64,000 nucleotides of DNA, from NCBI GenBank assembly GCA_017654855.1, contig CM030332.1, positions 7,812,001-7,876,000 on the forward strand, in the 5' to 3' direction. Both the position numbers and the translations under genes were made by a program. The notes under the pieces were generated by a model. That model made no database searches. It had not been told where the DNA came from and saw only the letters and a list, made by a program, of their open reading frames with translations. Source of the DNA: Podospora anserina. Lineage: Eukaryota. Numbering within the stretch: the first letter of the stretch is position 1; every line of letters begins with the position of its first letter. This document shows, piece by piece, positions 12,803 through 31,354 of the stretch.

Positions 12803-13171
12803 TAGGGAATGGGACCAGGAACTCCTTCTTTCCGACATCCACGCGATCCATATGACCCAGCGCGGCGGAGAGCATTTGGAGAAGAACTGTGATGGCACGC
12901 CCACCCCGTGCTTCTACCCGGGCGGGCAAGTTGTGTGCTCCGGATGTGTATATATCTGAGGTAGTTCCTCCGTCACATCCTCCCTTCTGTTTGATTTCAT
13001 TATTTTTCATACCATCTTCACCCCCTCCCCGCCCCCCCCCATCTTCACCAAACAAAGTCAAGCCAACTTGCCCTCCCCCGCAAGATCTAACCCCCCCGCA
13101 AATTACCCCACTACTCCAACTTTACCCCACAAACCAAACCCTCCCCCCCCTTCCCTTATCAGTTTATCAAG

Positions 13172-14155
13172 ATGGCCCCCCTCATCACAAACATCTACAC
13201 GGCCGACCCTTCAGCCCACGTCTTCGAAGGCAAAATCTACATCTACCCCTCCCACGATCGGGAAACCGATATCCAGTTCAACGACAATGGCGACCAATAC
13301 GACATGGCCGACTACCACGTCTTCTCCACCGAGTCCCTCGACCCCGCCGCCCCTGTAGTCGACCACGGCGTCGTCCTCAAGACAGAAGACATCCCCTGGG
13401 TCTCCAAGCAGCTCTGGGCGCCTGACGCGGCCACCAAGAACGGGAAATACTACCTCTACTTCCCCGCCCGCGACAAGGAGGGCATCTTCCGCATCGGTGT
13501 CGCGGTCGGTGACCGGCCCGAGGGCCCCTTCACCCCCGACCCGGAGCCCATCAAGGGGTCCTACTCCATCGACCCTGCCACCTTTGTTGACGATGACGGG
13601 GAGGCGTATCTCTACTTTGGCGGCCTCTGGGGCGGGCAGCTGCAGTGCTACCAGAAGGGGCACGACGTCTTCGACGCCAGCTGGCAAGGGCCCAAGGAGC
13701 CGACGGGCGAGGGCGTCCCCTCCCTCGGTGCCCGCGTTGGCAAGCTGACAGAGGACATGCGCCAGTTCGCCGAGGAGGTCAGGGATGTGGTCATCCTCGC
13801 CCCCGAGACCGGCGAGCCCATCCTCGCCGACGACCACGACAGACGCTTCTTTGAGGCGGCGTGGATGCACAAGTACAACGGGAAGTACTACTTCTCTTAC
13901 TCCACCGGCGACACCCACTACCTCGCCTATGGTGTCGGCGACAGCCCCTACGGTCCCTTCACCTATGGCGGGAGAATTTTGGAGCCGGTGCTGGGCTGGA
14001 CCACCCATCACTCTATTGTCGAGTTCAAGGGGCGGTGGTGGCTGTTCCACCACGACTGCGAGCTCAGCAAGGGTGTTGACCACTTGCGGTCTGTCAAGGT
14101 CAAGGAGATCTTTTATGACAAGGATGGCAAGATTGTTACCGAGAAACCCGAGTAA
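13172..14155 (+). CDS. Glycoside hydrolase family 43 beta-xylosidase/alpha-L-arabinofuranosidase, intracellular
   Basis: Intronless, 327 aa. Motifs TADPSAHVF, WAPD, IDPATFVDDDG, FFEAAW and GWTTHHSI carry the GH43 catalytic Asp/Asp/Glu. No signal peptide. Confidence 0.95.
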   Translation: MAPLITNIYTADPSAHVFEGKIYIYPSHDRETDIQFNDNGDQYDMADYHVFSTESLDPAAPVVDHGVVLKTEDIPWVSKQLWAPDAATKNGKYYLYFPARDKEGIFRIGVAVGDRPEGPFTPDPEPIKGSYSIDPATFVDDDGEAYLYFGGLWGGQLQCYQKGHDVFDASWQGPKEPTGEGVPSLGARVGKLTEDMRQFAEEVRDVVILAPETGEPILADDHDRRFFEAAWMHKYNGKYYFSYSTGDTHYLAYGVGDSPYGPFTYGGRILEPVLGWTTHHSIVEFKGRWWLFHHDCELSKGVDHLRSVKVKEIFYDKDGKIVTEKPE

Positions 14156-14470
14156 AAAACGGTGTCTTCTGGATGGCAAAAGTGTAAAAACAGTGAAATA
14201 GGCGAAAAGACATCAAGTCAAATATATTGAAGGGTATAAACTTTTCTAATTGTGATATAGTGTTTTGCTCGTGATATATGCTAAGCTAAGGTAGTGGTGA
14301 GGTGACGTGAGGGGATAAGTTCGTGTCTGTGTATGTAGTAGTTGTATAGTTGTAGGGGGGGGGGGAGGAGCGGGGGGGATTGTAAAGCATCGCCATCGTC
14401 ATCCATCATATCCAACAACACCCAACAAAAGAAAACCAACGCTACGCCTACTCCGACTTCCTCTTTCCAA

Positions 14471-17400
14471 TCAGTGGTCCATCACACCAGACCTCAACTT
14501 GTTCAACGCATCCTCATACTTCCCAGGACTGTGATCAGTCAACATGCTCGTCCCAAACCTCACCTCCCTGAACCTTTTCTCCACATCCCTCACATACTTC
14601 AACACCACTCGGTGGGCTGGTCTCCCCAGATCCTCTCCGCCAATCTCCGGCACCAAAAAGGCATCTCGCCTCAACACCCGTGTGCTCTCCACAACGAACA
14701 CCTCTCCAGGCGGCAGCAACTTCTGGCTCATCATGCTCGCTCTGAGAACCTTGAGCGCAGCATAAGCCCACTGATCGTCATCCTCCCTCTTGCAAGACTC
14801 GCCACCGCTCCCGCTAGAGCCATACCACTTGTCTGCTATCCCTGACTGCAACGCGTCCCAGATTCGCTGTCTGACTTCCACCTTGGCCTCATTGTTGTCT
14901 GTCTTGAAGGCCAGCGACACTGCCTGAAAGTCGTGGAGGACTCCCAGTGAAAGATAGGGCACGAGGTCGTTGCCGTTGACAATGCTGGTGATCAGACCGC
15001 GAGTGGCTTTGCTCAGAGAAGCCGACATCGTCGAAGGCGGGCCATAGGCGAAAACGTGAACCGGGCGGCCAGCAGGGAGGCATATCTCTTGATGCCGGAA
15101 AGCAGTAGTTGTGGTGCCGTCGCCGAGGAGTCGAGTATGAGGGTTGGGTGAGGTGATGAAGGTGGAACTGCTTGGGTGTGGCTCCGAGAGCATAACTCCC
15201 AAGAGAGCGGTAACAGCACCGCCAAGGGAGTGGCCGGTGAGGACGAGACCGTAATCGGAGAATTCTTCCAGGGCTTGCTTGAGCGTGTTGAGGACCCTGC
15301 CGTCGCCGCCATAGAGCAGCCGCTTGGCCGAAGCGTGGACACCCTTGTGGACTTTGTAAGCCTTGCCACGCCAGACAAGGTCATCATAGTCACACGTCAT
15401 GTCTGCCAAGACATCTTCGAAGCCAAGTGTCCCACGGCAGGCAAGCACAACGGCTTTGGCCTTGTGGTCAAGAGAGATGTAATGAACGAGGGGTACGCCA
15501 GTGTTGGTGGAGCCCGTGCCGTCAGAGCCACCTTGGGGGTCGACAAAGGAGGAGAGCAGAATGCTGTTGGCATCGGATTCGGTGTGGTGAGCGAAGCAGC
15601 GGAGTTCGTGGTGGGTGTCATCGAGGGCGCGCAAGATGGGCATCTCTTTGGCAATGCCCAGGACTCTGAGGAAGTTTGACCCATAAGAAGCAGAAGCGAA
15701 TCTCATGTATCGAGTGATGTTGGTCAGAAAATGGTCGTTGGGAAAGATGGTGTCCAGTTTCCCAGCTTTTCGCAGAGTGCCCAACGCCTCGGTATCGCTG
15801 TAGGCACTCCTGGACTGGTAGTTTTGGTATGGAACAAGCGAACTTTGCGATTCATTGGCCCTGAGAGTGTAGATGCTGGGCGCATACATGTGAGATTTGA
15901 CCCGACGATGGTTAGTCCCTGGACCACCAAGCGGACCGCCAAGCTCTCTGTCCGACCTCGCCTTCCTAACAACAGGATTGGTTGACGAATTCTCCTGATA
16001 AGGTGAGACCGGCCGATAGTCATCCGCGGTTGTAATAGAGAATGTTTCGGTTTGGGAGATGGAAGAGTCCCGACGGCTGTGCACTGAAATATAACTAGCC
16101 CGCGACTCGCTCCTCGGAACACTTCGGCGTGAATCAGCAGTCCCTGGCCGCGATGTTTTTGTCGCTGTCGTCTTCTGTGGCGGCACAATTACAGGCTGTT
16201 TTGGAATCAGGGAGGACTGTTTGCTAGGAACTGCTAGATGTGATGGTGGCCTGGCGGGCTTCGCGGTTTCCTTCGTCTTCCCGGCGCTGCTCTCTGAGCC
16301 AGAATCCTCTCTATTAAAGAGCCGTCCTGGCTTGGTAAACGCGCTTCTGAAACCCCCTTTCTTGGCTGAGGAGCCTATACTAGGACCCGAATCTTCCTTC
16401 TGCTGCTTGTAGGAAGGCAGCAATCGGTTGAATGACTGTCTCCTGGAAGAGGAGCTCGGCCTGTCATTGTTTGATGAGGAATCGGTTGGGGGTATCCTTG
16501 GTCGCTTCTGATTTGCTGCGTTCTCCACCCCGTGTCTCGATGCAGAAGGTATACGGGATGGTTTGCTGATGGAAGACGGCGATATCGGCGAACCAGAGCC
16601 TTGGAAGTTGGGGCGTCGGATAGGTGGTCGTAATTGTTCTCTCGATGACTTAGGAGGGACCGATGGTGGTGGTGACGGGTCTTCTTCGTCCGTTTCCACG
16701 TCTGACGTTCCGGGAGACTCCGTGTCCATCCGTTCCACAAACCCGGGAACCTGGCTGACATCTCCGTGCTCCTTTTGAAACCAGCTTCGCCTCTCGTGAC
16801 TTCGTGAATGCCGGAACACAAACCGAGAATCAGAGATGCTGTTCTCCGGGCGGCCACGCAGTTGAGTCTGGGACAAGCTGTGGCGAACGGCCCGGGGCTC
16901 CTCAATCAGTTCCACGCCAGGAGGTGTGTCAACCCTGATATCCTCATCACCGCCGGTAACCTCCACTGTGATAATCTCGGTCGTGCGAATCTGCCGGGTG
17001 ATAGACACTCTAGCGTTATCGGGAAGAGACCTCATGATTTGTTGCTCTAGTTGGGCCACGGGAAGGCGACTTCGGTCATCGTCGTTGAGTTCGCCGTTAC
17101 TGTTGATGGCGATCACTGTTTCCTTCGACGAGGCCTCCTCGGCGGCGTACGATCCGCTGTGGACTCCATACAGACTCCCCTCATGCACATCAACCCGAAC
17201 ACCATCACTCAGCACTACCACGTCCCACACTACCTCCTCGACCCTCAAGGTACGACTCTCCTCTTCCAGCAGGCGCCGACACCATCTCTGCAGATATGCC
17301 ATCCCACACAGGCCCAGCATCAAGTCAATCACGCCGACCTTTTCTCCCTGTCTGCCCGTTGCGGGGTTCTGAAACTCGCGACGGATCAAAGTGATGATGC

Positions 17401-17953
17401 TTGCCATGGCCCGCGATGAATCTGTTGAGCCGAAAAACTGATCCAGGGTCGACAGGAGGAGCTGGGAAGTCTCAGAGATCATGGCGAGCGTTGTACCCGT
17501 CATGTGAAAACTGGTTGTGGTCCAAAAGACGATCTGGGTCATGGTCCTGTGCAAGTTTTCAAGGCTCCGTTCAAGTGTAGTTTCAGCATCTGCTCTTCCA
17601 AGATCTGTACCAGAACGCGAGATGACATCTTTTCCAGCTCTGCTGATGATGCCTCCGAGAATACTGCGACCAAGTTCCAGACTCGACAAGGTGGTGAGCT
17701 TTGCGGCATCGAAGCCATACCCGCCTATCACCGTGCTCATACGTAGAGCTAGACCTGTGGACCGGGTCGCGAAACTGACGACTTTGGCCACCGGGGTTGG
17801 CAGAAGGGTCTTCCCGGGATTCGAGGCTGAGACATCGCGAATCTGGGTTCCGATGTCCTCGTCAGGAATCACGGCAAGTCGGGCAGGACCTGCGTCCTCC
17901 GGATCCACGTCCATATCGACATCGTCTATGTCTCCATAGTTTCCAATAATCAT
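14471..17953 (-). CDS. Class 3 lipase (diacylglycerol lipase-like) with long disordered middle region
   Basis: 1160-aa ORF. C-terminal domain has VVLACRGT, VHKG, LTGHSLGG (GxSxG nucleophile), NGNDLVP and DH motifs. Confidence 0.9.
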   Translation of the reverse strand: MIIGNYGDIDDVDMDVDPEDAGPARLAVIPDEDIGTQIRDVSASNPGKTLLPTPVAKVVSFATRSTGLALRMSTVIGGYGFDAAKLTTLSSLELGRSILGGIISRAGKDVISRSGTDLGRADAETTLERSLENLHRTMTQIVFWTTTSFHMTGTTLAMISETSQLLLSTLDQFFGSTDSSRAMASIITLIRREFQNPATGRQGEKVGVIDLMLGLCGMAYLQRWCRRLLEEESRTLRVEEVVWDVVVLSDGVRVDVHEGSLYGVHSGSYAAEEASSKETVIAINSNGELNDDDRSRLPVAQLEQQIMRSLPDNARVSITRQIRTTEIITVEVTGGDEDIRVDTPPGVELIEEPRAVRHSLSQTQLRGRPENSISDSRFVFRHSRSHERRSWFQKEHGDVSQVPGFVERMDTESPGTSDVETDEEDPSPPPSVPPKSSREQLRPPIRRPNFQGSGSPISPSSISKPSRIPSASRHGVENAANQKRPRIPPTDSSSNNDRPSSSSRRQSFNRLLPSYKQQKEDSGPSIGSSAKKGGFRSAFTKPGRLFNREDSGSESSAGKTKETAKPARPPSHLAVPSKQSSLIPKQPVIVPPQKTTATKTSRPGTADSRRSVPRSESRASYISVHSRRDSSISQTETFSITTADDYRPVSPYQENSSTNPVVRKARSDRELGGPLGGPGTNHRRVKSHMYAPSIYTLRANESQSSLVPYQNYQSRSAYSDTEALGTLRKAGKLDTIFPNDHFLTNITRYMRFASASYGSNFLRVLGIAKEMPILRALDDTHHELRCFAHHTESDANSILLSSFVDPQGGSDGTGSTNTGVPLVHYISLDHKAKAVVLACRGTLGFEDVLADMTCDYDDLVWRGKAYKVHKGVHASAKRLLYGGDGRVLNTLKQALEEFSDYGLVLTGHSLGGAVTALLGVMLSEPHPSSSTFITSPNPHTRLLGDGTTTTAFRHQEICLPAGRPVHVFAYGPPSTMSASLSKATRGLITSIVNGNDLVPYLSLGVLHDFQAVSLAFKTDNNEAKVEVRQRIWDALQSGIADKWYGSSGSGGESCKREDDDQWAYAALKVLRASMMSQKLLPPGEVFVVESTRVLRRDAFLVPEIGGEDLGRPAHRVVLKYVRDVEKRFREVRFGTSMLTDHSPGKYEDALNKLRSGVMDH

Positions 17954-19020
17954 CGTTCAGCGCAAGGCAAGAACAGAGGGCGGTATGGGATAGGTGTCAA
18001 ATTAACAAAGGACGTGAGGGTGATTAGATCGCACAGGGCCTCGGCTGGTCATCCCGAGGTAGGCTGGTTCGACGCGCAAGGGATCAACGAAGGGAATTTC
18101 GCAATGTGTTGGGGGACGACAGGAGGGCCAGAGGAAAGGACCTTCATCATCATGGGCGACGGAGGGGGGGCGAGAGCAAGGAGAAACAGCTATTATTGCT
18201 GAACTCTAGGGGAGGAAGAAAAGAGCGGTGGGCGTGGCGAAACAGCTAGAACGGCTGGCCAGCCCTGAGATTGTCACAATTATGCGTTCCATGATAGTGC
18301 TGGAGGCATTCCACATCGTCACTGGGCTCTGCATTTCTGTGGCCCCCAAAGGCTAATTTGGCATGTGATGACGTGGGGACGGTCATTTGCCGGTCGTTAG
18401 GGGCGCCATAGCGGCATTAGCGAGCAGACTCCAACTGCCAAACAGGACCCAACCCAGCTAACCCCGCCTTTCGCACTCCACTATCTCCAGCAACGCGGGG
18501 CAGATGTGGCGGGTATCGATGCACAAATATTGGGCTGATGAGTTGGAGATTGGCTTTGACCGGCGCTGCGGTCCTCTCTACATCACTTCATCATCACAGC
18601 CAGAAACAGGCACTCAAAAGTCGGCAAGACTCCACGGCCATGGGAGGCCCTCTTTTCTCTCTGCGGGGCCATCAAGACGGATGCAAAAGCATCGGAGGAG
18701 GAGGAGGAGGAGGAGCGAGCACTCGCCCATCCAAGCTTTTACACATGAACGGTCAAGCCTCTGATGCGGTGCGCCTACCGTGTTCCTTCCCGACGGACTG
18801 GGTCAGGGCCATAGCACAAATCAACGACAAACTACTTTGGTTCGTGAGAGGTCAATTCCAGGTTGGACTGGGCGTTTTCTTATCGATCTGTTTTCCAAGT
18901 TTCGTGGTGGGAGCTGGGTAGCTGGTGGGTTTCCCAACAGCAAGCGATCCCGCTTTCTTATCGCTGTGCAACAGGGCTGGCCCGAACCGTTCCCGAGCCC
19001 TTGAATCGGAAGCGGGTACC

Positions 19021-19305
19021 TAGGGGCTGGTCCACGCCCTGGACAAAATAACCGGCACTGCAAAGGTAAGTCAATAGAGGAAAGTATTCTAAACCACACC
19101 TTAAAAATACAGTTAATAGATATTGAAAGATAGTTGATAGACATTGAGGAATAGTTAATACACCTAAAAGGATGCTAAATAAGCTTCAGAAATAATTAAA
19201 ATGGCCTATCTTCTCTTTCAAAAGGTTCAACTCAAAATGCTTATTATACGTTTGGCTGACTGGGAGTACCAGCTATTTTGTCCACAACGTGCTGTCGAAA
19301 CCCTG
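19021..19305. mobile_element. Degenerate non-autonomous TIR element (MITE-like)
   Basis: Inverted repeat: 19033-19059 cacgccctggacaaaataaccggcact versus reverse complement of 19265-19291 cacgttgtggacaaaatagctggtact, 21/27 identical with an 11-bp perfect core. Outer ends are TAGGG and CCCTG. The interior is strongly AT-rich. No target-site duplication seen. Confidence 0.5.
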
Positions 19306-19572
19306 GCCATTGACCATTGACCACATCGATTCAACATCCGCATTCCCTTTCGTGATCCATCTTGTTCTCATTGGGCCGACAACGTTCGCTTTCAGCATTT
19401 GCACCAACCGGTAAGAGAACCTCCCACACGGAGTTCCGTACGTCTTCTCCTCTCCTACGACTACCTTCCTCAATTCGACAAACTGTACCATCTTGTCGCC
19501 GTTTGGTCCGACATCGCTCGATCGATCCAGCCCAACGCACGTAGCCAGAACACGCAGACGATCACTTTCACA

Positions 19573-20169
19573 ATGAGCACCCAAGATCTTTTCTCGGCCG
19601 ACCTCCTTTCTCCCAGTGTCCAGGCTGAGCTCCCAGAGGGTTACAAGCTCCGCGCGCTTCGGTCAGAAGACTACGAGCATGGCTTTCTCGACTGTCTTCG
19701 AGTCCTGACAACCGTGGGGGATATCTCCCGGCAGGAGTTTGACGAACGCTACCAGTGGCTGGCCAAGCAAGACGGCACTTACTTTATTCTCGTGATTGAA
19801 GATACCAACTTCAACCCACCCAGGATCGTGGGTACCGGTGCGCTGATCGTGGAGCGCAAGTTGTGAGTAACCTATCACCCCGAAGCCGTCTCGCACCATC
19901 GTCCCAGCAGCAGGGATGGGCTAACGTGGTCGTCGCACTCCAGCATTCACGGCCTTGGGAAGGTCGGACACATCGAAGACATCGCTGTTGCGAAGGACCA
20001 ACAAGGGAAGAAACTGGGTCTTAGAATTATCCAGGCTCTCGATTTCATCGCCAAAGAGACGGGTTGCTACAAGACAATCTTGGACTGCAGCGAGCACAAT
20101 GAGGGCTTCTATGTCAAGTGTGGATTTAAGAGAGCGGGGCTCGAGATGGCCCATTATCACAACAAATAA
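19573..20169 (+). CDS. gna1: Glucosamine-6-phosphate N-acetyltransferase (GNAT)
   Basis: Exons 19573-19862 and 19944-20169. Protein reads LTTVGDI...ERKFIHGLGKVGHIEDIAVAKDQQGKKLG...GCYKTILDCSEHNEGFYVKCGF. Confidence 0.96.
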
Positions 20170-21642
20170 TGTTTGTTTCGCAAGATATCTTTTTTTTCTT
20201 TCTCGGAGAAGCTGCTGACTGGCGGGGGTCGGGATTGTTCAGCAGCTCAAATGTCAAGAACCCAACCTCTGACGTCGGCCCATTCCAAAATACTTGGGGG
20301 GCGGAGTACGGCTGGTGTTTGCAACCCCACGGAGCTTGGCACCGAGACTGCCACACTGTCCAGGAACGATCAACGATCTATCGGTAATGTCACGACGACA
20401 CGATATGTTGGACATACGCTACCATTTTGGCGCACAAAGGGCGGCACATTGATATCATATGTTCCTGTCAACACTTGCTGAAGTTAGCACAGTATCATGA
20501 AGCCAGCCTTGTTGTTTCATTCCGTTGTGATGTAACCAGAAAGTCTAGATTGGCGTGCTTGTGTTTCAGTGTTGACAATACGCAGTTCTTGTACAGCCAG
20601 ACTCAACGGATGCCGGTGTGCCCATTCAGGCAAGCGAGACATGTCGGCATGAGAAGATGTTTTCCGTAGCACGACTTTGTTTTGACGATTGGAGCCAGTC
20701 TCGTCAGAAGCAGAGACCAAGGACGCAGTCGAGATTGGTGCAACCCCGCGCGGAATCAAGGCCCCGTTGGCCCTGTTGGCGGCAGTTAGCGGGCTGCCAC
20801 AATGGCCCTACCGTTACAGTAACACCAGGGCCCCCTTTCTCACCCTTGGGACACATCCATCCATCGGCCCTGTGGCATGTGATTCTGGGCGGTCTCGAAG
20901 GGAAACAACACAACCCATCCACCAGCAGGCCAACTCGACACACACCACGTCCTGACTGGTTGGTCGGCCATTTTTCTGCTGCAGGCTCAGCAGTTCAAAC
21001 GCCGAACTCTGCTCTTCTGACACCCCACCGGACTTCCTTTAGTGGACTTTCCTATTCCCCAATTCCCCGTTATCCAATGGTGATCGACACAGGCGTCTGT
21101 TGTGCAGCCATGAAGGATGGTCCGCTGAGCACCGCGAATGCTTCTTGTCCTCGGAGATGGGCCAGGAATGGGCTGGCTCTACGCAGGTTCGGCCTTCGAC
21201 GGATTGATTCAGCTCCGCCAGGTGCATCCCGGCTTTTCCTGGTCTGGAAGGTTGGATGTCGGTTCCCCAGGTGAATGCGAAAAAGGTGACCATTGACGGG
21301 CCGGAAGCCATTCCATCTGACCACCTTCCAGTCACCTATGCGACCTTGCCTTGCCTTGCTCTTGTGCACCTTGCAATTTGGGTGATCTATATATGTTCAG
21401 GTGTTCCCCGTCTTCTGTTTATTGACGCTTTCTTTCGAAGTTATCAAGCAAGCTCACAGCAGTTTCAAGTCCTAGCTACCACAACAGCTTTTACGCATAT
21501 AAACATCACACACATAACCGTCTCACCAACTTCGCCTGTACCCGACTCATAGATACAACCCGTCAGCCTAGCCGCTTACCTACCGTTCGGACTACGGATA
21601 TTCCCCAAGACCAAACCCGACAGATCATTCATATTAACCAAA

Positions 21643-21897
21643 ATGGGTGTCATTGCTGAGGATCTCAACGCTACCGTCGCCCGTGTGCGCATTGCTCTGA
21701 TTCAGTCGCAGTCAGTGGTCCCTTCTATATATGTTGTGGCATGTCTCCTGTGCTGACACCTTGTTAAAAGAGTCCGTGATCAAGCAACCTCCCCCGTCAG
21801 GAGAGCCCGCAGAAGATCGACTACTACCGCTGTGTACGCTGGATCCAAGGACGGAGTGCCAGTTTTCTCCAAGCAGAAGGTTGTCAGAGTGATCTAA
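21643..21897 (+). CDS. Spliced 64-aa basic microprotein of unknown function, immediately upstream of ayg1
   Basis: Strong start context CAAAATGG. Exon 21643-21710, 60-nt intron 21711-21770 (GTCAGT..GCTGAC..AAG), exon 21771-21897. Product MGVIAEDLNATVARVRIALIQSQVRDQATSPVRRARRRSTTTAVYAGSKDGVPVFSKQKVVRVI*. TATA-like element near 21388. Confidence 0.7.
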
Positions 21898-22035
21898 CTC
21901 TTTTATTTGGTTTATTTTGTACTTTATTGCATTGCATTGCGGGCCGCTCTCTGGGGTCTTTTTTTTCTCTCTCATCATTTGTGTTGAACCTTGACAAAAA
22001 CTTTCGGATATCAAAATCAAGTCACATCAACAACC

Positions 22036-23446
22036 ATGTCTCCTCACTCTGTCCCGGCGAAGAAGAACATCGGGGGTATCTCGGGGGTGGATGGCACGGG
22101 GGAACAGCGAGAATGGCTGATGGGCCGGGAGGCGTTTGAGGCCACGATGCCGCATCATGAGGGGATCAAGGCGTTGTGGGAGACGAAGTGGAGGTTTCCC
22201 GTAAGTTCTTGTCTACCAGATAAACGACAATCACACCCACCACCAGGGCATGTTTTGACGAGTGGGGAAGTGCACCAAGTCCCTCTACCCCTTCCACGAC
22301 GGCCGATTCTCCGACTTTGAACCCATCTTCCAGTCTCTCATCGCGCGCAACGTCAACGATGGGACCTCAGCCGAGTACACCTCTTCTTTCATCCCCACGG
22401 CCGACAACCTCGAACGACAGGGCGATGAGCTTCTCGCCCAAGGCAACAAGACCAAGGCCTCGGAGCTGTACCTGAGGGCCTGTACCGTGTTGAGGATCGC
22501 CAGGTTCCCGTATATTGCCTCTTTTCCCGACGTGACGGACAAGACGAAGTGGGAGGCGTGGGAGAAGCAAAAGGCGACGTATGCCAAGGCGGGGAAGACG
22601 TGGGAGAGCCCGTTGGAGGAGGTGGTTGTGCCTCATGCCCAGGCCAAGGGGAGGGATAGGAAGGATATTCCTGTTTACGTTCGGGTTCCCGACGGGAAGA
22701 CGGGGCCGTTTCCTGCTGTTGTTCTCATGACTGGGTTGGATGGGTACCGGCCTGACAATACCGTTCGGTGTGAGGAGTTTTTGGCTCGGGGGTGGGCAGC
22801 TGTTGTTGTGGAGATCCCTGGGACGGCGGACTGCCCGGCTGATAGTGCCGATCCTGAGAGCCCGGATAGGCTGTGGAGTTCGTTGCTGGATTGGATGGCG
22901 AAAGAGGGGAGGTTTGATATGAAGAAGGTCATGGTTTGGGGATTGAGTAGCGGGGGCTATTATGCCGTGCGGGTGGCGCATACGCACAAGGAGAGGATCA
23001 TTGGGAGTGTTGCTCAGGGGGCGGGGGTTCATTACTTTTATGATAGGGAATGGCTGGAGCGGGCGGATAGGCATGAGTATCCCTTCAAGTTGACGCCGGC
23101 GATGGCGCATAAGCATGGGTTTGGGAGCGTGGACGAGTATAAGGAGAAGGCGCAGAAGAAGTTTTCGTTGTTGGAGACGGGGATTCTGAAGATGGAGAGC
23201 GCGAGGTTGTTGTTGATCAATGTGAGCTTTTACCTGCCTCTCCCCTCGAGCATGAAACTAACAAAAGAACAGGGCACGCTGGACGGTCTCATGCCCATCG
23301 AGGACTCGATGATGCTGTTTGAGCATGGCTCGCCCAAGGAGGCTAGGTTCTTCGCCAATGCTCTGCATATGGGCTACCCGATGGCCAACAGCTCGGTGTA
23401 CCCCTGGATGGAGTCTGTGATGAAGTCGGTTCAGGGATCAAAGTGA
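22036..23446 (+). CDS. ayg1: Ayg1-type alpha/beta hydrolase (polyketide-shortening enzyme of DHN-melanin synthesis)
   Basis: Exons 22036-22200, 22271-23221, 23273-23446. Motifs PHHEGIKALWETKWRFPC..YPFHDG, GLDGYRPD, EIPGTADCP, WGLSSGGYYA, and SPKEARFF..LHMGYP. Confidence 0.88.
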
Positions 23447-23525
23447 GGGAATCAGAGGTCCATTCGCTAGGGTTTTGGCTTGAGTCTGCTTCGTATTTCA
23501 TAATCACGAATAATAAAGTTGGTGA

Positions 23526-24405
23526 TTACCGACCCATCCATCCGCCGTCCACAACGAGGACATGACCGCTCACATATGCACTTGCTTTGCTGGCTAGATA
23601 TACGGCTGTCCCTTTGAAGTCTTCAGGGGTGCCCCACTGCATGATGGTCAGTTATTGCCCAGGTATTATGGTGGGTGTACTTACCCTTCCGGCCGGTATC
23701 CTCGCGCTGATACTCGCCAGCCTCTCCTTGTCGTTCAACAACGCAGTGTTCATTTCTGTCTCGATGTATCCAGGCGCAATGGCGTTCACCGTGATTCCCT
23801 TGGATGTCCACTCGTTGGCAAAGCTCTTGGTGAGCTGCCCAACAGCTCCCTTCGAAGCAGCATAAGCTGGCACGGTGAGTCCTCCCTGAAAGGTGAGCAG
23901 AGAAGCAAAGTTGATGATGGATCCCTTGCGGCCAGTGACTGGCGAGGGCTCAAGCGTCAACATGCGAGCACCAATATCCCGACAGAGGGTAAAGACGCTG
24001 TTGAGGTTGACCTGAATGACTTCGTTAAAGTCCTCATCTGGGAACTCCTCGCAGGGGTACCGCCGTTGGATGCCGGCGCAATTGACCAGTATGCGTATTT
24101 CCCGGCCCTCGTCCAGTAGCTCGGGAACGATCCTCTTCACCTCTGTAGGAGAACTGAGGTCTGCCGCAACGACTGTAACTCTGCGCCCCAGTTTCCGGAT
24201 GGCGGTTGCTGTCTCTTCGTCCTTTGCATTTCTCTGAGTGATACGTTAGTCCAAGCTCGAGACTGGGGGTTTCCGTCATGCTGAGGAGAGGTACCTGGAC
24301 CAAAATGACATCTGCCCCGGCTTCGGCGAGTGCAATGGCGACAGCTTGCCCGATACCCCGCGTTCCGCCGGTTACGAGGGCAGTGTGATCTTTGAGGGAA
24401 AACAT
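23526..24405 (-). CDS. Short-chain dehydrogenase/reductase, KduD/IdnO (2-deoxy-D-gluconate 3-dehydrogenase / gluconate 5-dehydrogenase)-like
   Basis: Exons 24405-24295, 24233-23685, 23636-23526. Motifs [32 protein letters not shown] (YxxxK), [10 protein letters not shown] and VDGGWMGR*. Confidence 0.9.
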
Positions 24406-25096
24406 GGCGTTAGGCTGTCCGTATCGCTCACAGACTTGACTAGGGAGATGTACAGGATGTGCAGTCAAACTTTCGGCCTGCTGCAAGGGGAGGGATGCCT
24501 CAAGGTAGAGCAATCTACAGAATATTGTACATCTCGGCCATTCCGTTGCTTTCACCTTGACCAGTTGGAGCTCATCCGAAGCCAGACTGTGACCCCTCCC
24601 CCACCTGCCTACTTTTACACCCGCAGCTCTTTCCCGTTCGACACCAGCCGTCATCGGATGGGAACCTCCCATTCTTCTCGCTCTGCCCCACGTCCCTGGT
24701 TCTCGGTATGTTTTGTGTCACTTTCTACGGATAGGCGCGTGGAAGGTCCAAGTAATCTGCAACACCTCATGATCGTGTTTGCTTTTTTTCTTTTCTTTTT
24801 TTGTCGATGATGACTGGTTGTGATCCTCCATCATGACCAATAGTCGATCGGATGGCCGCTCCCACTTGCTGCGAGTGGGCGGTACAAGTGGAGATGTTGG
24901 GCAGGGAGGTTTGATTCGCCGTTGGGCTGCCTGAGCTCGAGGGTCACTTTGATATTTATTTATCCTATCGTTTTCCTGGGCGATGTTGATCGTTCTCATC
25001 ATGCCTTGAAGATCTGGTCACATCTTTTACCATATACCTCGTGTCTCCTCAGCCATAGTTACCTACCGATTTGACTTGGACCTCAACACCAAAACC

Positions 25097-26311
25097 ATGT
25101 CCACTGAAGTCAAAACCTCGGTCCTCTATGGGGCTAAAGACCTCCGTCTTGTAAGTCTCCTTTTCCCCTCTATTCTTGCGAAGGCTTCTGCTGACATGGC
25201 AGGAAACCCGCCCGCTTCCACCCCTCACGCCAAACGACGTCCGCGTCACCGTCAAAGCCACCGGCCTCTGCGGCTCAGACCTTCACTATTACAACCACTT
25301 CCGCAATGGCGACATCCTTGTCCGCGAGCCTCTGACTCTAGGCCATGAGTCGGCCGGAATCGTCACCGCTGTCGGCTCAGCCGTCACCAATCTGTCCCCC
25401 GGAGACAAGGTGGCTCTTGAAGTTGGACAACCGTGTGAATCATGCAATCTTTGTCTTCGAGGGAGGTACAACATATGCCCCGAGATGAAGTTCCGCTCTT
25501 CCGCCAAGGCGTGGCCTCATGCCCAGGGGACGCTGCAGGAGGAGATTGTACACCCCCGGAAGTGGTGTCATAAACTACCCGAGGGAGTGAGCTTGGAGGA
25601 TGGAGCACTGGTTGAGCCGATGGCTGTTGCTCTTCACGCGCTGCAGAGGGCAAAGTTGGAGGAAGGGGCAAAGGTTTTGGTCTTTGGGGCTGGGACGGTG
25701 GGCTTGCTTTGTGCGGGCGTTGGTAAAGTTGTGAGTAAGGCCAGTGTGATTATTGCGGATATTCAGGAGGAGAGGGTCAAGTTTGCGACCGAGAATGGGT
25801 TTGCGGATGAGGGGGTGGTCGTGCCAATGAAGAGGCCGGAGACGATAGAGGAGAAGCTGGTGTTTGCGAGGGAGGTGGCGGAGATGGTAGGGGAGAAAAT
25901 GGGACAGGCGGATGGGACGTTTGAGTGTACGGGGGTGGAGAGCTGTCTGCAGGCTGCCATCTTTGTGAGTCCCGAAGTCTTGACCTCGTTGCGTTTGCTG
26001 ACATCAAGCAGGCCACGGCTCCAGGAGGCAAAGTCATGATCATCGGCATGGGCAACCCAATTCAGACTCTTCCCATCTCAGCAGCCTCGATCCGAGAGGT
26101 CGACCTCGTTGGAGTCTTCAGATATGCAAATGCTTACCAAAAAGCCATTGAGCTGCTCGCTAATGGTCTTCGATCAAAGTTGCCTGGGTTAAATCACCTG
26201 ATCACGCAACGCTTCACAGGTATTGAGAACATACCCAAAGCGTTTGGAATGGCGGGTCGAGTCAAAGACGACGAGGGAAGATTGGTGATCAAGGTGCTGG
26301 TCAATATGTGA
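25097..26311 (+). CDS. Zinc-dependent polyol dehydrogenase (sorbitol/xylitol/L-idonate dehydrogenase family, MDR)
   Basis: Exons 25097-25150, 25203-25964, 26012-26311. Motifs GLCGSDLHYY, GHESAG, structural Zn CESCNLC..RYNIC, GAGTVG..ADI (NAD-type Asp) and GVFRYAN. Confidence 0.92.
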
Positions 26312-26363
26312 TTATGAGATCTCTAGAAACGTCTGAATACCCATACCCTTTCCGCTCACCAGA

Positions 26364-27470
26364 TCACTGCTTGTCTGGGAAACCAAAGTTGACACCGAAT
26401 GGCGGGTACACAAACCGCTGCCACTTCTTCTCCGCAACCAGCTTGTCAGAGTACGCCTTCAGCTCAGCCTGGTCCTCCTCATCCAGGTCGATCAGAGACT
26501 CGATGTTCTCTTTGATGCGCTCGGGGGTGACGGACTTGGCGAGCACGGTGCTGCCTCTCGGGGCTGTTTCTCACTGTCAGCCTCTCACGTCTTCAAAAAC
26601 ACTGGGTGTGGGGACAAACCATGGTAACTCAGCAGGACCGAGCTCGGCTTCACGCCATGCTTCTCCGCAATCTTGACCACCGGCTCAGCGCTCAACAGCG
26701 GTCCACCAGTTGACCCCAGGGGGCTGTACGCCATGATGTGAATTCCCTTTTCCTTGCAAAGGTCGACGATCTCCTGCTGGGGAAGACCGGGGTGGTTCTC
26801 GATTTGGTTGACGGCTGGGATGACTGTGGCGTGGGGGAGGAGCTGTTCAAGGTAGAGCTTGGAGTACTGTTTTTTCTCTTTAGCAACGGGAACTCGGGAG
26901 AGGAGGGTAAGGGCGGGGGGGGTTTACGTTGGAAACACCGATGGCCTTTGTCTTGCCAGTCTTCAGCAGCGCCTCCATCTGTTTCCAGGTATCAACATGG
27001 TTGTACCCCTGGATGATGTCGCGGCTCCCGTCCGGTTTGGTGGGGAACCGGTCGTGGTTACCTATCTCCGATCAACATCAAACCCCTGATCTCACCTGCC
27101 CGGAGCCGTACTCACCCTCAGGATTCATCAGCAGCGGCCAGTGAACCAGGAACAGATCAACGTAATCCAACCCCAGACTCTTCAAGCTCTTGTCCAATCC
27201 TTCCTCGACGCGGGTGTTGTACGTAGTCCAGACTTTGCTCACGACAAAGATGTCCTCTCGTTTCACTTTGCCGGCGGATAAGACCTCTGCGAGCCCCTGG
27301 CCGACTTCATCTTCGTTGGCGTAGCAGTAGGCGCCGTCGATGAGCGTGTAGCCGTTTTGGAGGGCGTAGGAGACGGCGGAGGCTACCTGGCCTGGGGGCG
27401 ACTGCCAGGTTCCCAGGCCGATGGACGGGATTTTGGCGCCGGTGTTGAGGGTGAAGTGTTTGGGGGGCAT
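26364..27470 (-). CDS. Aldo-keto reductase (GCY/Ypr1-like, NADPH-dependent)
   Basis: Four exons from ATG 27470. Reads MPPKHFTLNTGAKIPSIGLGTWQS, IDGAYCY, VSKVW, LVHWP, AIGVSNYS, NQIENHP, AYSPLGS and LAKSVTPERIKEN. The D-Y-K-H tetrad is intact. Confidence 0.93.
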
Positions 27471-27615
27471 TTTGGGGTTTGTCCTGAGGTGAGATAAGTG
27501 ACGGACGAATAGGCGAGACAGTTTGATTCTGGGCAAAAAAAAAAAAAAAAAAAAAAGAGGAATTGAGAAACAGCTTTGGATTGGAAGTAAAATACAGATC
27601 AAGGAGTGTTCAACA

Positions 27616-27686
27616 CGGCTAAGTAGCAGCAGGTATCCAGCTTATACCATGGATCCCACGCGGAGAAAGAGAGCTATCCGGCTAAA
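27616..27686. promoter_or_regulatory. Two XlnR-type motifs upstream of the AKR gene
   Basis: CGGCTAAG at 27616 and CGGCTAAA at 27679-27686, 150-215 bp upstream of the AKR ATG. Confidence 0.45.
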
Positions 27687-28399
27687 TGAGAGGACGGAGC
27701 AAAAGCGCGTCGAGGGCAGATCATGGAGTATCACGACAGCGGGCAGGCGGAAGGCGACTGTTCTGCTCTCTCCGTATTGCTTGAAATACAGGGATCTCTC
27801 GTCTGGATAGGGACAAAGACGGCCAAGTCTGAGGTCTGCCTACAATCTCAACGTGAAGCTGCCCCTCATGATGGCATCAAAACCCCACAGTCACATCCGA
27901 CCCCCTCTCGTCAGGGGCACCCTCTCGTACCGCTGCGGTCTCCAACACCGTCTTTAGGCACTTTGATAGGTGGAAAATTGCTCCCGTTACCACTCGTCTC
28001 AGGAAATACAGGACAAGTTTCCCCGTGTCTTCAAATCTTTCAATCTGCAGGTCAGAGCTAGGCTTCTTCAAACTCTCAATGCTTTCCCATTCAAGACAAC
28101 CAGCGATAGTCTGGCACCCTTTGCCTCACTGCCTCCCTTTTCTGTACACAGCCATTCAGGCAGCCCCCTTCTTTGTCTTCCCAAGAAACAAGATACAAAA
28201 AAGACCACACGCCCACCCATCATTATTACCAAGGTTCTGTCTACCATGCTTGCAACGAAAGATTCTACCGAGAAAACGCCGGCGCGAACATCAAAAAAAA
28301 ATGAAGTACGCGGTAGTCCCCGTATGCGAGTAGCAGCAGTTAAAAAAGGAAGGACATAATTATACAAGAGAATCGTAATTTTGGGAACAACCCAAAAGA

Positions 28400-29580
28400 C
28401 TACCCGGCGATCAACACCCAGAGCAGGAAGAATATCATCTAGAAACATCATATCAGCGAGCTGCATAGACATGGCCTGAAGGGAAGGTAAACCCACAAGA
28501 ACGCCAAACATCTTGGCTAACAACCACCTGTTGCTGCTGACTCGTGACCAGTACTTGAGAAGCTCTTTCTGTGCGCCCTCAACATTGTCCACGACGTCCT
28601 CTCTGCATACGGATATTAGCTAATGGCATCACGTAATAGAGTGGTGGAAGAAGGGGCTCACGTGTTGGCATCGATTCTTTGAATCATCTCTGATTGTTCG
28701 CTGACCATGCCAGCTAGTTGACCGAAGCTGGAGAAATTGATCAGCTGTGGTCATCTTGATCTTCAGGTTCAGAGAAGAACTCACATGGACCCCAGTTCGT
28801 TGATGGTAGATTCAATGGCTTCGATGGCTTGCCCTCTTTGCTGAATGTAGTTGTTCTGGCCACCCTCCTCCATCATCTGGAGCTGCATCTGCTGGTCTAC
28901 CACTGGGTTCAGAGAAATCAAGTCATTCCCCGGTGATGGTGTCCCCCGGTTTGGCGTGCCGTATAGCGGGGAGGCAGATTGCTGCAAGGAAAGCTGCGCA
29001 TGTTGCCCGACGTTAGAGACAAATGCCTCGGTCCTTGACCTCGAGGCCTGGATGTTCTTGGTTCTGATCTCCAACACGTCCTGTCACGGCCATCAGTGCG
29101 CGTTCAGATATCCGACTGGGGTGTGTTTTGTCCTACCTTGAAGTTCGCGCTGACATCCCCCAACTTGCCCTGCAAGAGAAGCAAAATGTTCTTGTTGTTC
29201 TCACCCTCTTGGTCCGGTTTTGGGTGCAGCCGTCTGGAAAGGGCCTGGAGATTTCGGATATCCTCGTTGAGGCGGGACAGATCTTGCTTGATGATGAAGG
29301 TCAACTCGTTCACCTCGACCGGGTTGTCGTCAAAGAGGGATCGCTTCTTGGCCAGCTGAGCCAGCTTTTGCAGTTTGCCCATAGTAGCCGAGATTCCTCT
29401 GCCGATTTCTGCCGCACTCCGCGCAAACTCTGAGCGCTTGGGTTTGACATCGTCGTTGGCGGCGCTTTGTTGACTGCTGCCGAGGAGTCTCTGCGATCCA
29501 GGTTTTGCCACTTGCTTGCGCTTCGCGGCGCTGACAATGTGACGGAATTCCGCCGTGCGGTCGTTGATCGCGACGGCCAT
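28400..29580 (-). CDS. sed5: Syntaxin 5 (cis-Golgi Qa-SNARE)
   Basis: N-terminal NDRTAEF, LAKKRSLFDDNPVEVNELTFIIKQDL, SNARE motif AIEAIESTINELG...MIQRIDAN, and C-terminal TM ..KMFGVL|MIFFLLWVLIAG*. Four GT-AG introns. Confidence 0.95.
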
Positions 29581-31354
29581 TTTGAAAGCCGTTCGGTGAC
29601 GAAGACTGGGATATAGGTCGTGGCTGTCTCTGGTATTTGTTCTCGATGATGTGACCGAAGACGATTAGGGTACGATACGGGTTTTTTGCTGTCGCGATGC
29701 GCCCGTGTGGACTGAAGAAAGGCGAGCTGAGGAAAGGTGTCCAGATAGGGGAACGCGATGTTGATTAATTAAAAGTTGTGTACGTAAATGCGAAAGCCGG
29801 CAGCGAGGGTCTTTGTCGGAAGAATGGTCAGAATGGGGCGCCTATGACGGCTGGAAACGGTTGGCGATGTCCAAGATGTCGTCGTGATTGAAGGAAACGT
29901 GGTGTTGTTTCGACAAGGAACGCTTGGACCCCCCTTTGACTTGCGTTTAGGTGTGAGCACAGTGCAGACGATGCGGGAACTGTGGCTGGGACTGTGCGAA
30001 TAGCGCAGGGTCCTGATCTAGTCACTCTCTTAATCAGCAGCGCTGTAGCGACTTGTAGAGTTACAGGTGCTACTTAGAGTTGATACAGCAAGAGTGCACT
30101 TTATGAAAATAGGTGTATCTATTGTACGGCAGAGCTGCCAGAGAGCAATCAGCAAAGCCAGGCCTGGTTTGAAGCTCTATACGAATTACACTCGCCTCCT
30201 GGGCAATCCGATGACGCGCGGCGATGGGCATCCAGTGCCCGCAATCTAGCCAGAGTAGCATCAACACAGCCCCGCGCAAGGGACCGGGCCATCTGCTCGT
30301 GATAATTTGATAAGCTATGAGGTCTGCCGACAGTCGTATGGAGTTCTCGATCCACCAGTTCAGTAACTGCAGGAACACACAAAAAAGACCAGGGGCCGTG
30401 GCCTTGTCGTTTTGGCACCCACGATGCACAAGACTTCGTGAGATGCTGGGGCAGCTGCATCACCGTTAAGAGCGAGGGTCTGGAAGAACTGTAATGGATC
30501 TTCCTCATTGGCTATGATGAGAACTTGGTGGAAGCTCAACCACAGGGATTAACCCGCCTTCCAAAGCGTCATTCTTCAGCAAGCTGGCCTCGTGTCTTGG
30601 ATGTCCTCAATCTCAAACAATTTCAAAATGCATGTGCACAATTAATCCGATTGTCTTCGACCAGACAATGAATGCCTTTCTTTTTTTTTTTTTTGGCATC
30701 AGCACGACTTGGCCGGACCCCACAAAGTCAAATCCACCCCGAATCCGCGCGCCTCTAATCCTTGTCCCCAAATCGTGAACCCCAGCAGATCCGTAGTGGA
30801 ATTCGTTCATGATCGGGTGGAACGCTGGGAAACCCCGAATGACATCTGCCCATCTCCTCTCCTTCATAACTGTTCCACGTTCGCCCGACCAGCCGTGCTT
30901 CGTGAACCTGTCCCTCAAACCTTGGTTCTCAAACAACTCCTCGCGACCAACTTGAGCCGACAACTGATCCGGTTTGAACCACTGGACGAAACCCGTGCTA
31001 CACCCGCGGGCTCTGTTTTGCCGCATTCTGGCCGACAGAACCAACTTGCATTATTGGGGCGCTCTCCTACTTCCAAGCTCCCCTTCCGAACAGCCTCTTA
31101 ATTTGCGCCATTGGAGGAGCTGTTACTGCGCCTGCAGGCTCGAAGCTGCTGAAAAACCAACTGGACGGCACAATGGACGGCTCCTATGGGAATGTATTTC
31201 CTACAAACCGGTCCATGTAAGCAGATTGTGCCACCCCGCTGCGTTCCCGTTGCCCAACCTCGGTGCGCACAGCAGTGCGTCGATGATACTGCTGAACTAA
31301 CACCCCCTCTTCTCCAGGTCACCTGCTGTAGGGTCTCCGGCGCAAGCAAACAAC

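What the first reader, a model, noticed from the sequence alone, without database searches (positions are those of the whole stretch)
21388..22036. Hidden spliced 64-aa microprotein apparently sharing a transcript with the melanin-pathway hydrolase gene ayg1
Seen: an intron-split ORF absent from the ORF track, with a good start context, canonical intron signals and a TATA-like box plus about 200 nt of leader. It stops at 21897, only 138 nt before the ayg1 ATG. The gap is T-rich, has no ATG and no TATA, and I found no splice that fuses the two frames. The peptide has an amphipathic-looking N-terminal helix (DLNATVARVRIALIQ), a basic RRARRRST patch (NLS or PKA-like RRxS/T site) and a beta-like tail. 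Established: Ayg1 shortens polyketides in DHN-melanin synthesis. Inference: this is a bicistronic unit or a large spliced uORF that couples a small protein to Ayg1 expression or activity, an arrangement I do not know to be described.
Basis: partly seen in the sequence, partly recalled or inferred. Interest (0 to 1): 0.72.

Follow-up and report, generated by a model that had tools for sequence, protein, structure and literature searches.

The report
Conserved microprotein gene glued to ayg1
A real, spliced 64-amino-acid gene of unknown function sits directly in front of a melanin-pathway enzyme gene across many related moulds, sometimes only 12 to 24 bases away, which suggests the two are often read from one messenger RNA, although that is not yet proven.

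Summary
The ORF is real but not hidden. The spliced peptide equals the annotated hypothetical protein Pa_1_21040; junction 21710/21771 is spliced in 3 of 3 presumed-RNA runs and absent from the presumed-DNA run. Homologues of 62-71 aa span Sordariomycetes, keep a phase-2 intron at the same codon and show dN/dS 0.12-0.42. No Pfam family or fold. It is tied to ayg1: consecutive accessions in 19 of 19 genomes checked; directly upstream in 13 of 14 Sordariomycete-like metagenome loci, 0 of 43 others. Stop-to-ATG gaps are 12-182 nt, all ATG-free. A shared transcript is inferred (about 0.7), not shown: contigs bridge the gap but also merge other genes, and one published Podospora model ends 15 nt before the ayg1 ATG. 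Best reading (0.5): a conserved two-ORF unit; the microprotein acts as a protein, and Ayg1 is made by ribosomes that skip its AUG. Unexpected: most Podospora RNA contigs retain ayg1 intron 1, which truncates the enzyme. Not found in print in my searches. New variant of a known kind.

The parts
21388..21395 (+).
   Evidence: RNA contig X1 begins upstream, about 21286
21643..21710 (+). microprotein exon 1 (conserved helix), strong start context
21711..21770 (+). 60-nt phase-2 intron, GTCAGT / GCTGAC / AAG; holds the only two ATGs and an in-frame TGA
   Evidence: spliced in 3 of 3 presumed-RNA runs, not in the DNA run; same phase and codon in 9 of the 10 loci examined
21771..21897 (+). microprotein exon 2 (variable linker, RRxS motif, predicted beta-hairpin), stop TAA
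21898..22035 (+). 138-nt T-rich, ATG-free spacer; in frame with ayg1 but blocked by a second stop; no stable fold (z -0.15)
   Evidence: covered by RNA contigs; a published transcript model ends at about 22020
22036..22200 (+). ayg1 exon 1 (Pa_1_21050 orthologue)
22201..22270 (+). ayg1 intron 1, weak branch (TTTGAC) and AAG acceptor; retained in the dominant RNA contigs, giving a stop at 22320
22271..23221 (+). ayg1 exon 2 with the GXSXG serine motif
23222..23272 (+). ayg1 intron 2 (51 nt), absent from the Logan form P0158
23273..23446 (+). ayg1 exon 3 with the Asp and His motifs and stop; spliced product 429 aa

Best explanation
A Sordariomycete-wide two-ORF unit. A promoter upstream of the small gene makes an RNA that, after removal of the small intron, carries the 64-aa ORF and then ayg1 (inferred). 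The microprotein is translated and works as a protein in its own right (coding constraint shown, translation inferred): a helix and a basic beta-hairpin joined by a variable linker, most likely a small accessory or regulator made together with Ayg1, with a possible PKA-type RRxS site (inferred). Ayg1 is made by ribosomes that miss the first AUG, through a very short leader or a start just past it, and scan 200-370 nt of AUG-poor RNA (inferred). In Podospora the coupling is loosened: the leader is long, some RNAs probably end in the spacer, and most RNA over ayg1 keeps intron 1, so the microprotein is probably the main product in mycelium.
For: Spliced in RNA. dN/dS 0.12-0.42 in 7 of 7 pairs. 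Both ends conserved, linker free. Consecutive accessions with Ayg1 in 19 of 19 genomes where both were shown. Same strand, directly upstream in 13 of 14 Sordariomycete-like loci plus partial L009; 0 of 43 others. Single copy in G000 and absent beside the distant Ayg1 paralogue. Gaps 12, 16, 24, 69, 69, 72, 93, 103, 138, 172, 182 nt. ATGs in gaps 0 against 9.5 expected; out-of-frame ATGs in the spliced ORF 3 against 9.0 expected, Poisson p 0.02. TATAA 23-48 nt before the small ATG in 4 of 10 loci (0.27 expected; 0 of 39 before ayg1 ATGs lacking the ORF). Contigs unbroken across the gap in 3 of 3 runs. No ayg1-only transcript in a 37-library annotation that keeps only one-CDS models. Both genes up in the same comparison while the upstream neighbour is blank and the downstream one down.
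Against: No long read or ribosome profile seen. Contigs also join ayg1 to neighbours further away, so continuity is no proof. One StringTie model of Pa_1_21040 ends 15 nt before the ayg1 ATG. SuperSAGE assigns separate tags to both genes, r = 0.56, p = 0.19 over 7 ages. The small ORF has a purine at -3 in 10 of 10 loci, the opposite of algal leaky-scanning bicistrons. The window lacks the close TATAA. About 30% of genes lack a model in that annotation anyway. 5' leaders are ATG-poor whatever the model, and loci are not independent. No peptide evidence found. One Sordariomycete-like locus (L030) lacks a detectable ORF.
Confidence: 0.5

Rival explanations
1. Two separate but overlapping mRNAs. 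The small gene ends in the spacer or inside ayg1; ayg1 has its own start in the spacer or inside the small gene. They stay adjacent because their control regions interlock, possibly as a long repressive and a short productive isoform.
For: Published model ending at about 22020; separate SAGE tags although the spliced small mRNA has no CATG between 21109 and 22035; T-rich spacers in 7 of 11 loci; strong start context of the small ORF.
Against: Gaps of 12-24 nt in three lineages force the small gene's mRNA to run into ayg1; ATG depletion inside the small coding region; no ayg1-only model published.
Confidence: 0.22
2. A cis-acting conserved-peptide uORF: the nascent peptide stalls its own ribosome, perhaps sensing a polyketide or another signal, and so gates Ayg1 translation.
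For: Never seen apart from ayg1; strong start context; conserved basic block of about 30 residues next to the stop, with the stop within 2 residues in Sordariales.
Against: In distant members the N-terminal helix is best kept while the C-terminus and stop position drift; both modules fold confidently on their own; the ATG-poor path to ayg1 fits bypass rather than a block.
Confidence: 0.2
3. The small ORF is an alternative N-terminus of Ayg1, joined by minor splicing or stop-codon readthrough, and serves as a targeting or assembly tag.
For: Three public gene models fuse the two (P0148, P0082, P0062); in-frame GT..AG pairs exist in the window; 7 of 11 gaps are in frame (p 0.04); an unspecified alternative 3' splice site is listed for Pa_1_21040.
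Against: The three fusions have three different junctions, and a GNA1-Ayg1 chimera shows that predictors err here; only 4 of 11 gaps are open in frame and the window's is blocked; no contig shows such a joint (contigs drop rare forms).
Confidence: 0.06

Closest known systems
Green-algal bicistronic loci translated by leaky scanning (PMC11892635, abstract and outline read)
   Same: Two conserved ORFs in tandem with AUG depletion before the second start.
   Different: There ORF1 has a weak start context and long reads prove the shared mRNA; here the context is strong in 10 of 10 loci and the shared mRNA is inferred.
Conserved-peptide uORFs, e.g. the arginine attenuator peptide of Neurospora arg-2 (recalled) and plant CPuORFs (PMC2075485, search listing only)
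   Same: Upstream ORF with conserved amino-acid sequence that stays with one downstream gene.
   Different: 64-71 aa with two predicted folded modules and a free linker; C-terminus less conserved than N-terminus in distant members; stalling untested.
Human polycistronic uORF microproteins such as STREMI (PMC13303939) and yeast bicistronic transcripts (PMC8573964, PMC11952965); all search listing only
   Same: Small conserved protein encoded ahead of a larger one on one transcript.
   Different: No sequence relation tested or expected; this case is fungal secondary metabolism.
Ayg1/Yg1 polyketide-shortening hydrolases (Afyg1p PDB 8QD1, Wdyg1p 8QD7; PMC11165489 passages; N. crassa pkh-1 in PMC8662359 passages)
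   Same: Downstream protein matches 8QD1 at E 1.8e-148 and keeps the Ser, Asp and His motifs.
   Different: No partner protein appears in the passages read; Ayg1 loci outside the Sordariomycete-like clade lack the small ORF. Orthology to pkh-1 (NCU01903) is recalled from gene order, not tested.

Membership tests
Protein-coding gene | Transcribed and spliced | tested here: met
   junction in 3 of 3 presumed-RNA runs, 0 of 1 DNA run
Protein-coding gene | Purifying selection on the peptide | tested here: met
   dN/dS 0.12-0.42 in 7 of 7 pairs, one pair nearly identical
Protein-coding gene | Peptide detected | tested here: inconclusive
   no hit in two Sordaria supplement sets; 1 of 10 and 7 of 19 files were not searched
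Eukaryotic bicistronic unit | Single mRNA molecules carry both ORFs | tested here: inconclusive
   contigs bridge the gap but cannot show one molecule; one published model ends in the gap
Eukaryotic bicistronic unit | Conserved tandem order and short spacer | tested here: met
   19 of 19 accession pairs; gaps 12-182 nt
Eukaryotic bicistronic unit | Both ORFs translated from that mRNA | not testable with these tools
   needs ribosome profiling or reporters
Leaky-scanning bicistron, algal type | AUG depletion before ORF2 | tested here: met
   0 against 9.5 in gaps, 3 against 9.0 in the ORF
Leaky-scanning bicistron, algal type | Weak start context at ORF1 | tested here: not met
   purine at -3 in 10 of 10 loci
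Conserved-peptide uORF (arrest peptide) | Peptide conserved and tied to one downstream gene | tested here: met
Conserved-peptide uORF (arrest peptide) | C-terminal residues and stop position conserved | tested here: inconclusive
   kept in Sordariales, drifting in distant loci
Conserved-peptide uORF (arrest peptide) | Sequence-dependent repression in cis | not testable with these tools
   needs reporter assays
Ayg1 hydrolase (downstream gene) | Sequence match and Ser-Asp-His motifs | tested here: met
Ayg1 hydrolase (downstream gene) | Polyketide-shortening activity in this fungus | not testable with these tools
   N. crassa pkh-1 mutants are listed with black perithecia, so the role may be auxiliary

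The most novel reading that the evidence does not exclude
An ancient fungal two-gene operon in melanin synthesis: one RNA encodes an unrecognised 7-kDa, kinase-regulated partner or inhibitor of Ayg1 and the enzyme itself, and the balance between them is switched by leader length and by retention of ayg1 intron 1. Earlier ayg1 deletions and expression counts in Sordariomycetes would then have hit two proteins.
Probability: 0.3. Interest if true: 0.78.

Novelty: new variant of a known kind. Interest (0 to 1): 0.58.

Why it matters
DHN-melanin genetics is mature, yet a conserved small gene beside one of its enzymes has no Pfam family and, in my searches, no paper. If the two share an mRNA it is a rare, naturally conserved fungal bicistron that can be dissected in two laboratory moulds, with a natural series of spacers from 12 to about 180 nt. 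It also flags an annotation problem: public models fuse, truncate or omit this gene, which may confound ayg1 knockouts and expression counts.

Tried and rejected
Pfam: 0 families for 3 of 3 homologues. PDB profile search: 1 hit at E 1.3. Foldseek: none at E <= 0.001. VIA wide: best Z 3.5, generic helices. ESM Atlas: unnamed, mostly bacterial clusters, no usable lead. Complex prediction of Ayg1 with the microprotein: no verdict (runs 0.00, 0.73, 0.00; alignments not used), not counted either way. Run search: no RNA holder on record, types are guesses. Spacer structure: no better than shuffles; the bacterial promoter/terminator scan found nothing and does not apply to a fungus. Stop-codon readthrough as a general mechanism: rejected. 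L061 as a distant homologue: similar layout by eye but scores within controls. L062/L063 gene model doubtful (phase 1, short C-terminus). Papers: 'Pa_1_21040' 0 hits in full text; ayg1 with bicistronic, polycistronic or uORF terms listed no ayg1 paper among the top 20 of 4,776; further searches showed nothing on this gene in their listings; PMC8763234 passages had no ayg1. Subscription journals are mostly missing and bioRxiv supplements were closed, so fungal long-read tables could already list this pair. Earlier scan findings: none.

Full report
1. Observation. The sequence shows the ORF as described: ATG 21643, a 60-nt intron 21711-21770, stop at 21897, 64 residues, and a 138-nt ATG-free gap to the ayg1 ATG at 22036. 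Laying four public runs on 21300-22800 gave the 21710/21771 skip in 3 of 3 presumed-RNA runs from three studies and not in the presumed-DNA run. The spliced translation is identical to P0145, annotated as PODANS_1_21040. So the gene is real and already annotated as hypothetical; it was hidden only from an unspliced ORF track.

2. Family. Exon 2 alone found 4 of 4 candidates; a profile found 19 of 169 candidates, 62-71 aa, from Sordariales and Thozetella; cluster look-ups added Neurospora and others. The alignment of 27 shows a conserved N-terminal block, a free linker and a conserved basic C-terminal block; RRx[ST] is present in 27 of 27, and in 8 of 11 DNA loci. AlphaFold2 gives a helix (2-27) and a hairpin (37-49, 52-63), pLDDT 81, pTM 0.34, that is two modules with no fixed packing. 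It is 7 kDa, pI about 11.7. No Pfam, PDB or fold match. Codon comparison gives dN/dS 0.12-0.42 in 7 of 7 pairs. It is single-copy in G000.

3. Linkage. In 19 of 19 genomes for which both accessions were displayed, the small protein and Ayg1 have consecutive numbers; this gives neither strand nor distance, and Neurospora, Sordaria and several others were not paired. For DNA I fetched 80 metagenome loci with an Ayg1 alignment. I dropped 15 without the first ayg1 exon and 8 with under 250 nt upstream (one of these, L009, still shows exon 2), leaving 57. Thirteen carry the small gene on the same strand directly upstream (27-117 bits; best control 11). In an Ayg1 tree these fall with named Sordariomycetes (weak support, 0.55, at the base of that group): 13 of 14 such loci have it, L030 does not, and 0 of 43 outside do. 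A fused model extends the family to Verticillium. The distant Ayg1 paralogue in G000 has none. The intron is phase 2 at the same codon in 9 of 10 loci; the tenth (L062) is a doubtful model.

4. One transcript or two. For: gaps of 12, 16, 24, 69, 69, 72, 93, 103, 138, 172 and 182 nt, the shortest too small for a 3' end and a promoter; no ATG in any gap (9.5 expected) and 3 out-of-frame ATGs in the spliced ORFs (9.0 expected, p 0.02); RNA contigs unbroken over the gap. Lelandais et al. (PMC9801653; abstract, passages, section 15 and supplement rows read) keep only models over one CDS and list none for ayg1 while listing its neighbours, but about 30% of genes have none. Lamacchia et al. (PMC4835503; supplement rows) show both genes up (3.1 and 2.1) in one unlabelled column, probably the incompatibility comparison. 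Against: the same contigs run on into other genes; the one published model of the small gene has a 123-nt 3' UTR ending at about 22020; SuperSAGE (PMC3869774; passages and supplement rows) gives the small gene its own 18-39 tags per million although its spliced mRNA has no CATG near its end, which fits some RNAs ending in the gap, though I could not see the tags. I put a substantial two-ORF isoform at about 0.7 across the family; in Podospora both forms probably exist.

5. How Ayg1 would be made. The small ORF's start is strong in 10 of 10 loci, unlike ORF1 of algal bicistrons (PMC11892635, abstract). However TATAA lies 23-48 nt before the small ATG in 4 of 10 loci (0.27 expected; 0 of 39 for ayg1 genes without the ORF). 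A review gives TATA-to-start distances of 35-46 bp in several filamentous fungi and basidiomycetes (PMC9604717, passages), which would leave a leader of about 0-15 nt or a start at the AUG itself. That very short leaders let ribosomes skip the first AUG is my own knowledge. This is inference, and the window lacks that close TATAA. Readthrough is not general: 7 of 11 gaps are in frame but only 4 are open, and the window's is blocked. Three fused public models have three different junctions and look like prediction chimeras.

6. Unexpected result. All three RNA contigs run through ayg1 intron 1 (22201-22270) unspliced. Among Logan records, the form with intron 1 retained and intron 2 removed stands on 20 contigs; the fully spliced form on 1, plus two entries that list Logan among their sources. 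The word share of 15 presumed-RNA runs, 0.88-0.89, is nearest the 0.90 expected for that form, against 0.85 if all introns were removed. The intron has a weak branch and an AAG acceptor; most relatives have a CTRAC-like branch. Retention stops the frame at 22320. Contigs drop rare forms, so this speaks to the majority only. Why such RNA is abundant despite a long tail behind the first stop is unexplained.

7. Comparison. The downstream gene is a clear Ayg1 family member (PMC11165489 passages). In N. crassa pkh-1 is listed among melanin genes with black mutant perithecia (PMC8662359 passages); in V. dahliae ayg1 rises 165-fold in microsclerotia (PMC3852263 passages). The unit works like a eukaryotic bicistron or a conserved-peptide uORF, but the defining tests of either (single molecules, translation, action in cis) could not be run, and one algal feature is not met. 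What the protein does is not shown; an accessory or regulator of Ayg1 or of melanin-pathway placement is my best guess from the strict linkage.

8. Verdict. Real gene, already annotated, uncharacterised family, conserved attachment to ayg1 not found in print in ten searches of an open-access library. New variant of a known kind; interest 0.58; 0.78 if the two-gene operon with a regulatory partner is confirmed.

Noticed in passing
window 22201-22270: ayg1 intron 1 is retained in the dominant RNA contigs (3 of 3 laid runs; 20 Logan contigs against 1-3 fully spliced); weak branch TTTGAC and AAG acceptor.
   Followed up: partly
P0165 (two Podospora genomes): Ayg1 is annotated as a 222-aa protein starting at the first Met of exon 2, as expected if annotation followed intron-1-retaining RNA.
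   Followed up: partly
P0148, P0082, P0062, P0172: Public chimeric models: three small-ORF/Ayg1 fusions with different junctions and one GNA1/Ayg1 fusion; whether the commonly used V. dahliae ayg1 model includes the small ORF was not checked.
   Followed up: partly
L061, about 290 nt upstream of its Ayg1 ATG: A helix-like first exon with a phase-2 GTAAGT donor at codon 20, an RVVRV end and a 35-nt gap, outside the Sordariomycete-like clade; looks like a very distant relative but scores within controls.
   Followed up: partly
window 21967 and Ayg1 residue 322: The window differs from all four laid runs at 21967 (C against T) and from the reference Ayg1 at residue 322 (R against G).
   Followed up: no
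L009 (ayg1) and L013 (intron 1): L009 lacks ayg1 intron 1 although the small gene's intron is present; L013 has a GC-AG intron 1.
   Followed up: no
G000:C6:2589247-2590020: Distant Ayg1 paralogue (37% identity) with no small ORF upstream.
   Followed up: yes
window 13091-30000: Neighbours: GH43 hydrolase, lipase-like gene, GNA1, then ayg1, 2-deoxy-D-gluconate 3-dehydrogenase (opposite strand), polyol dehydrogenase, aldo-keto reductase and Sed5-like syntaxin; names other than GNA1 and the dehydrogenase are from recall of the translations.
   Followed up: no
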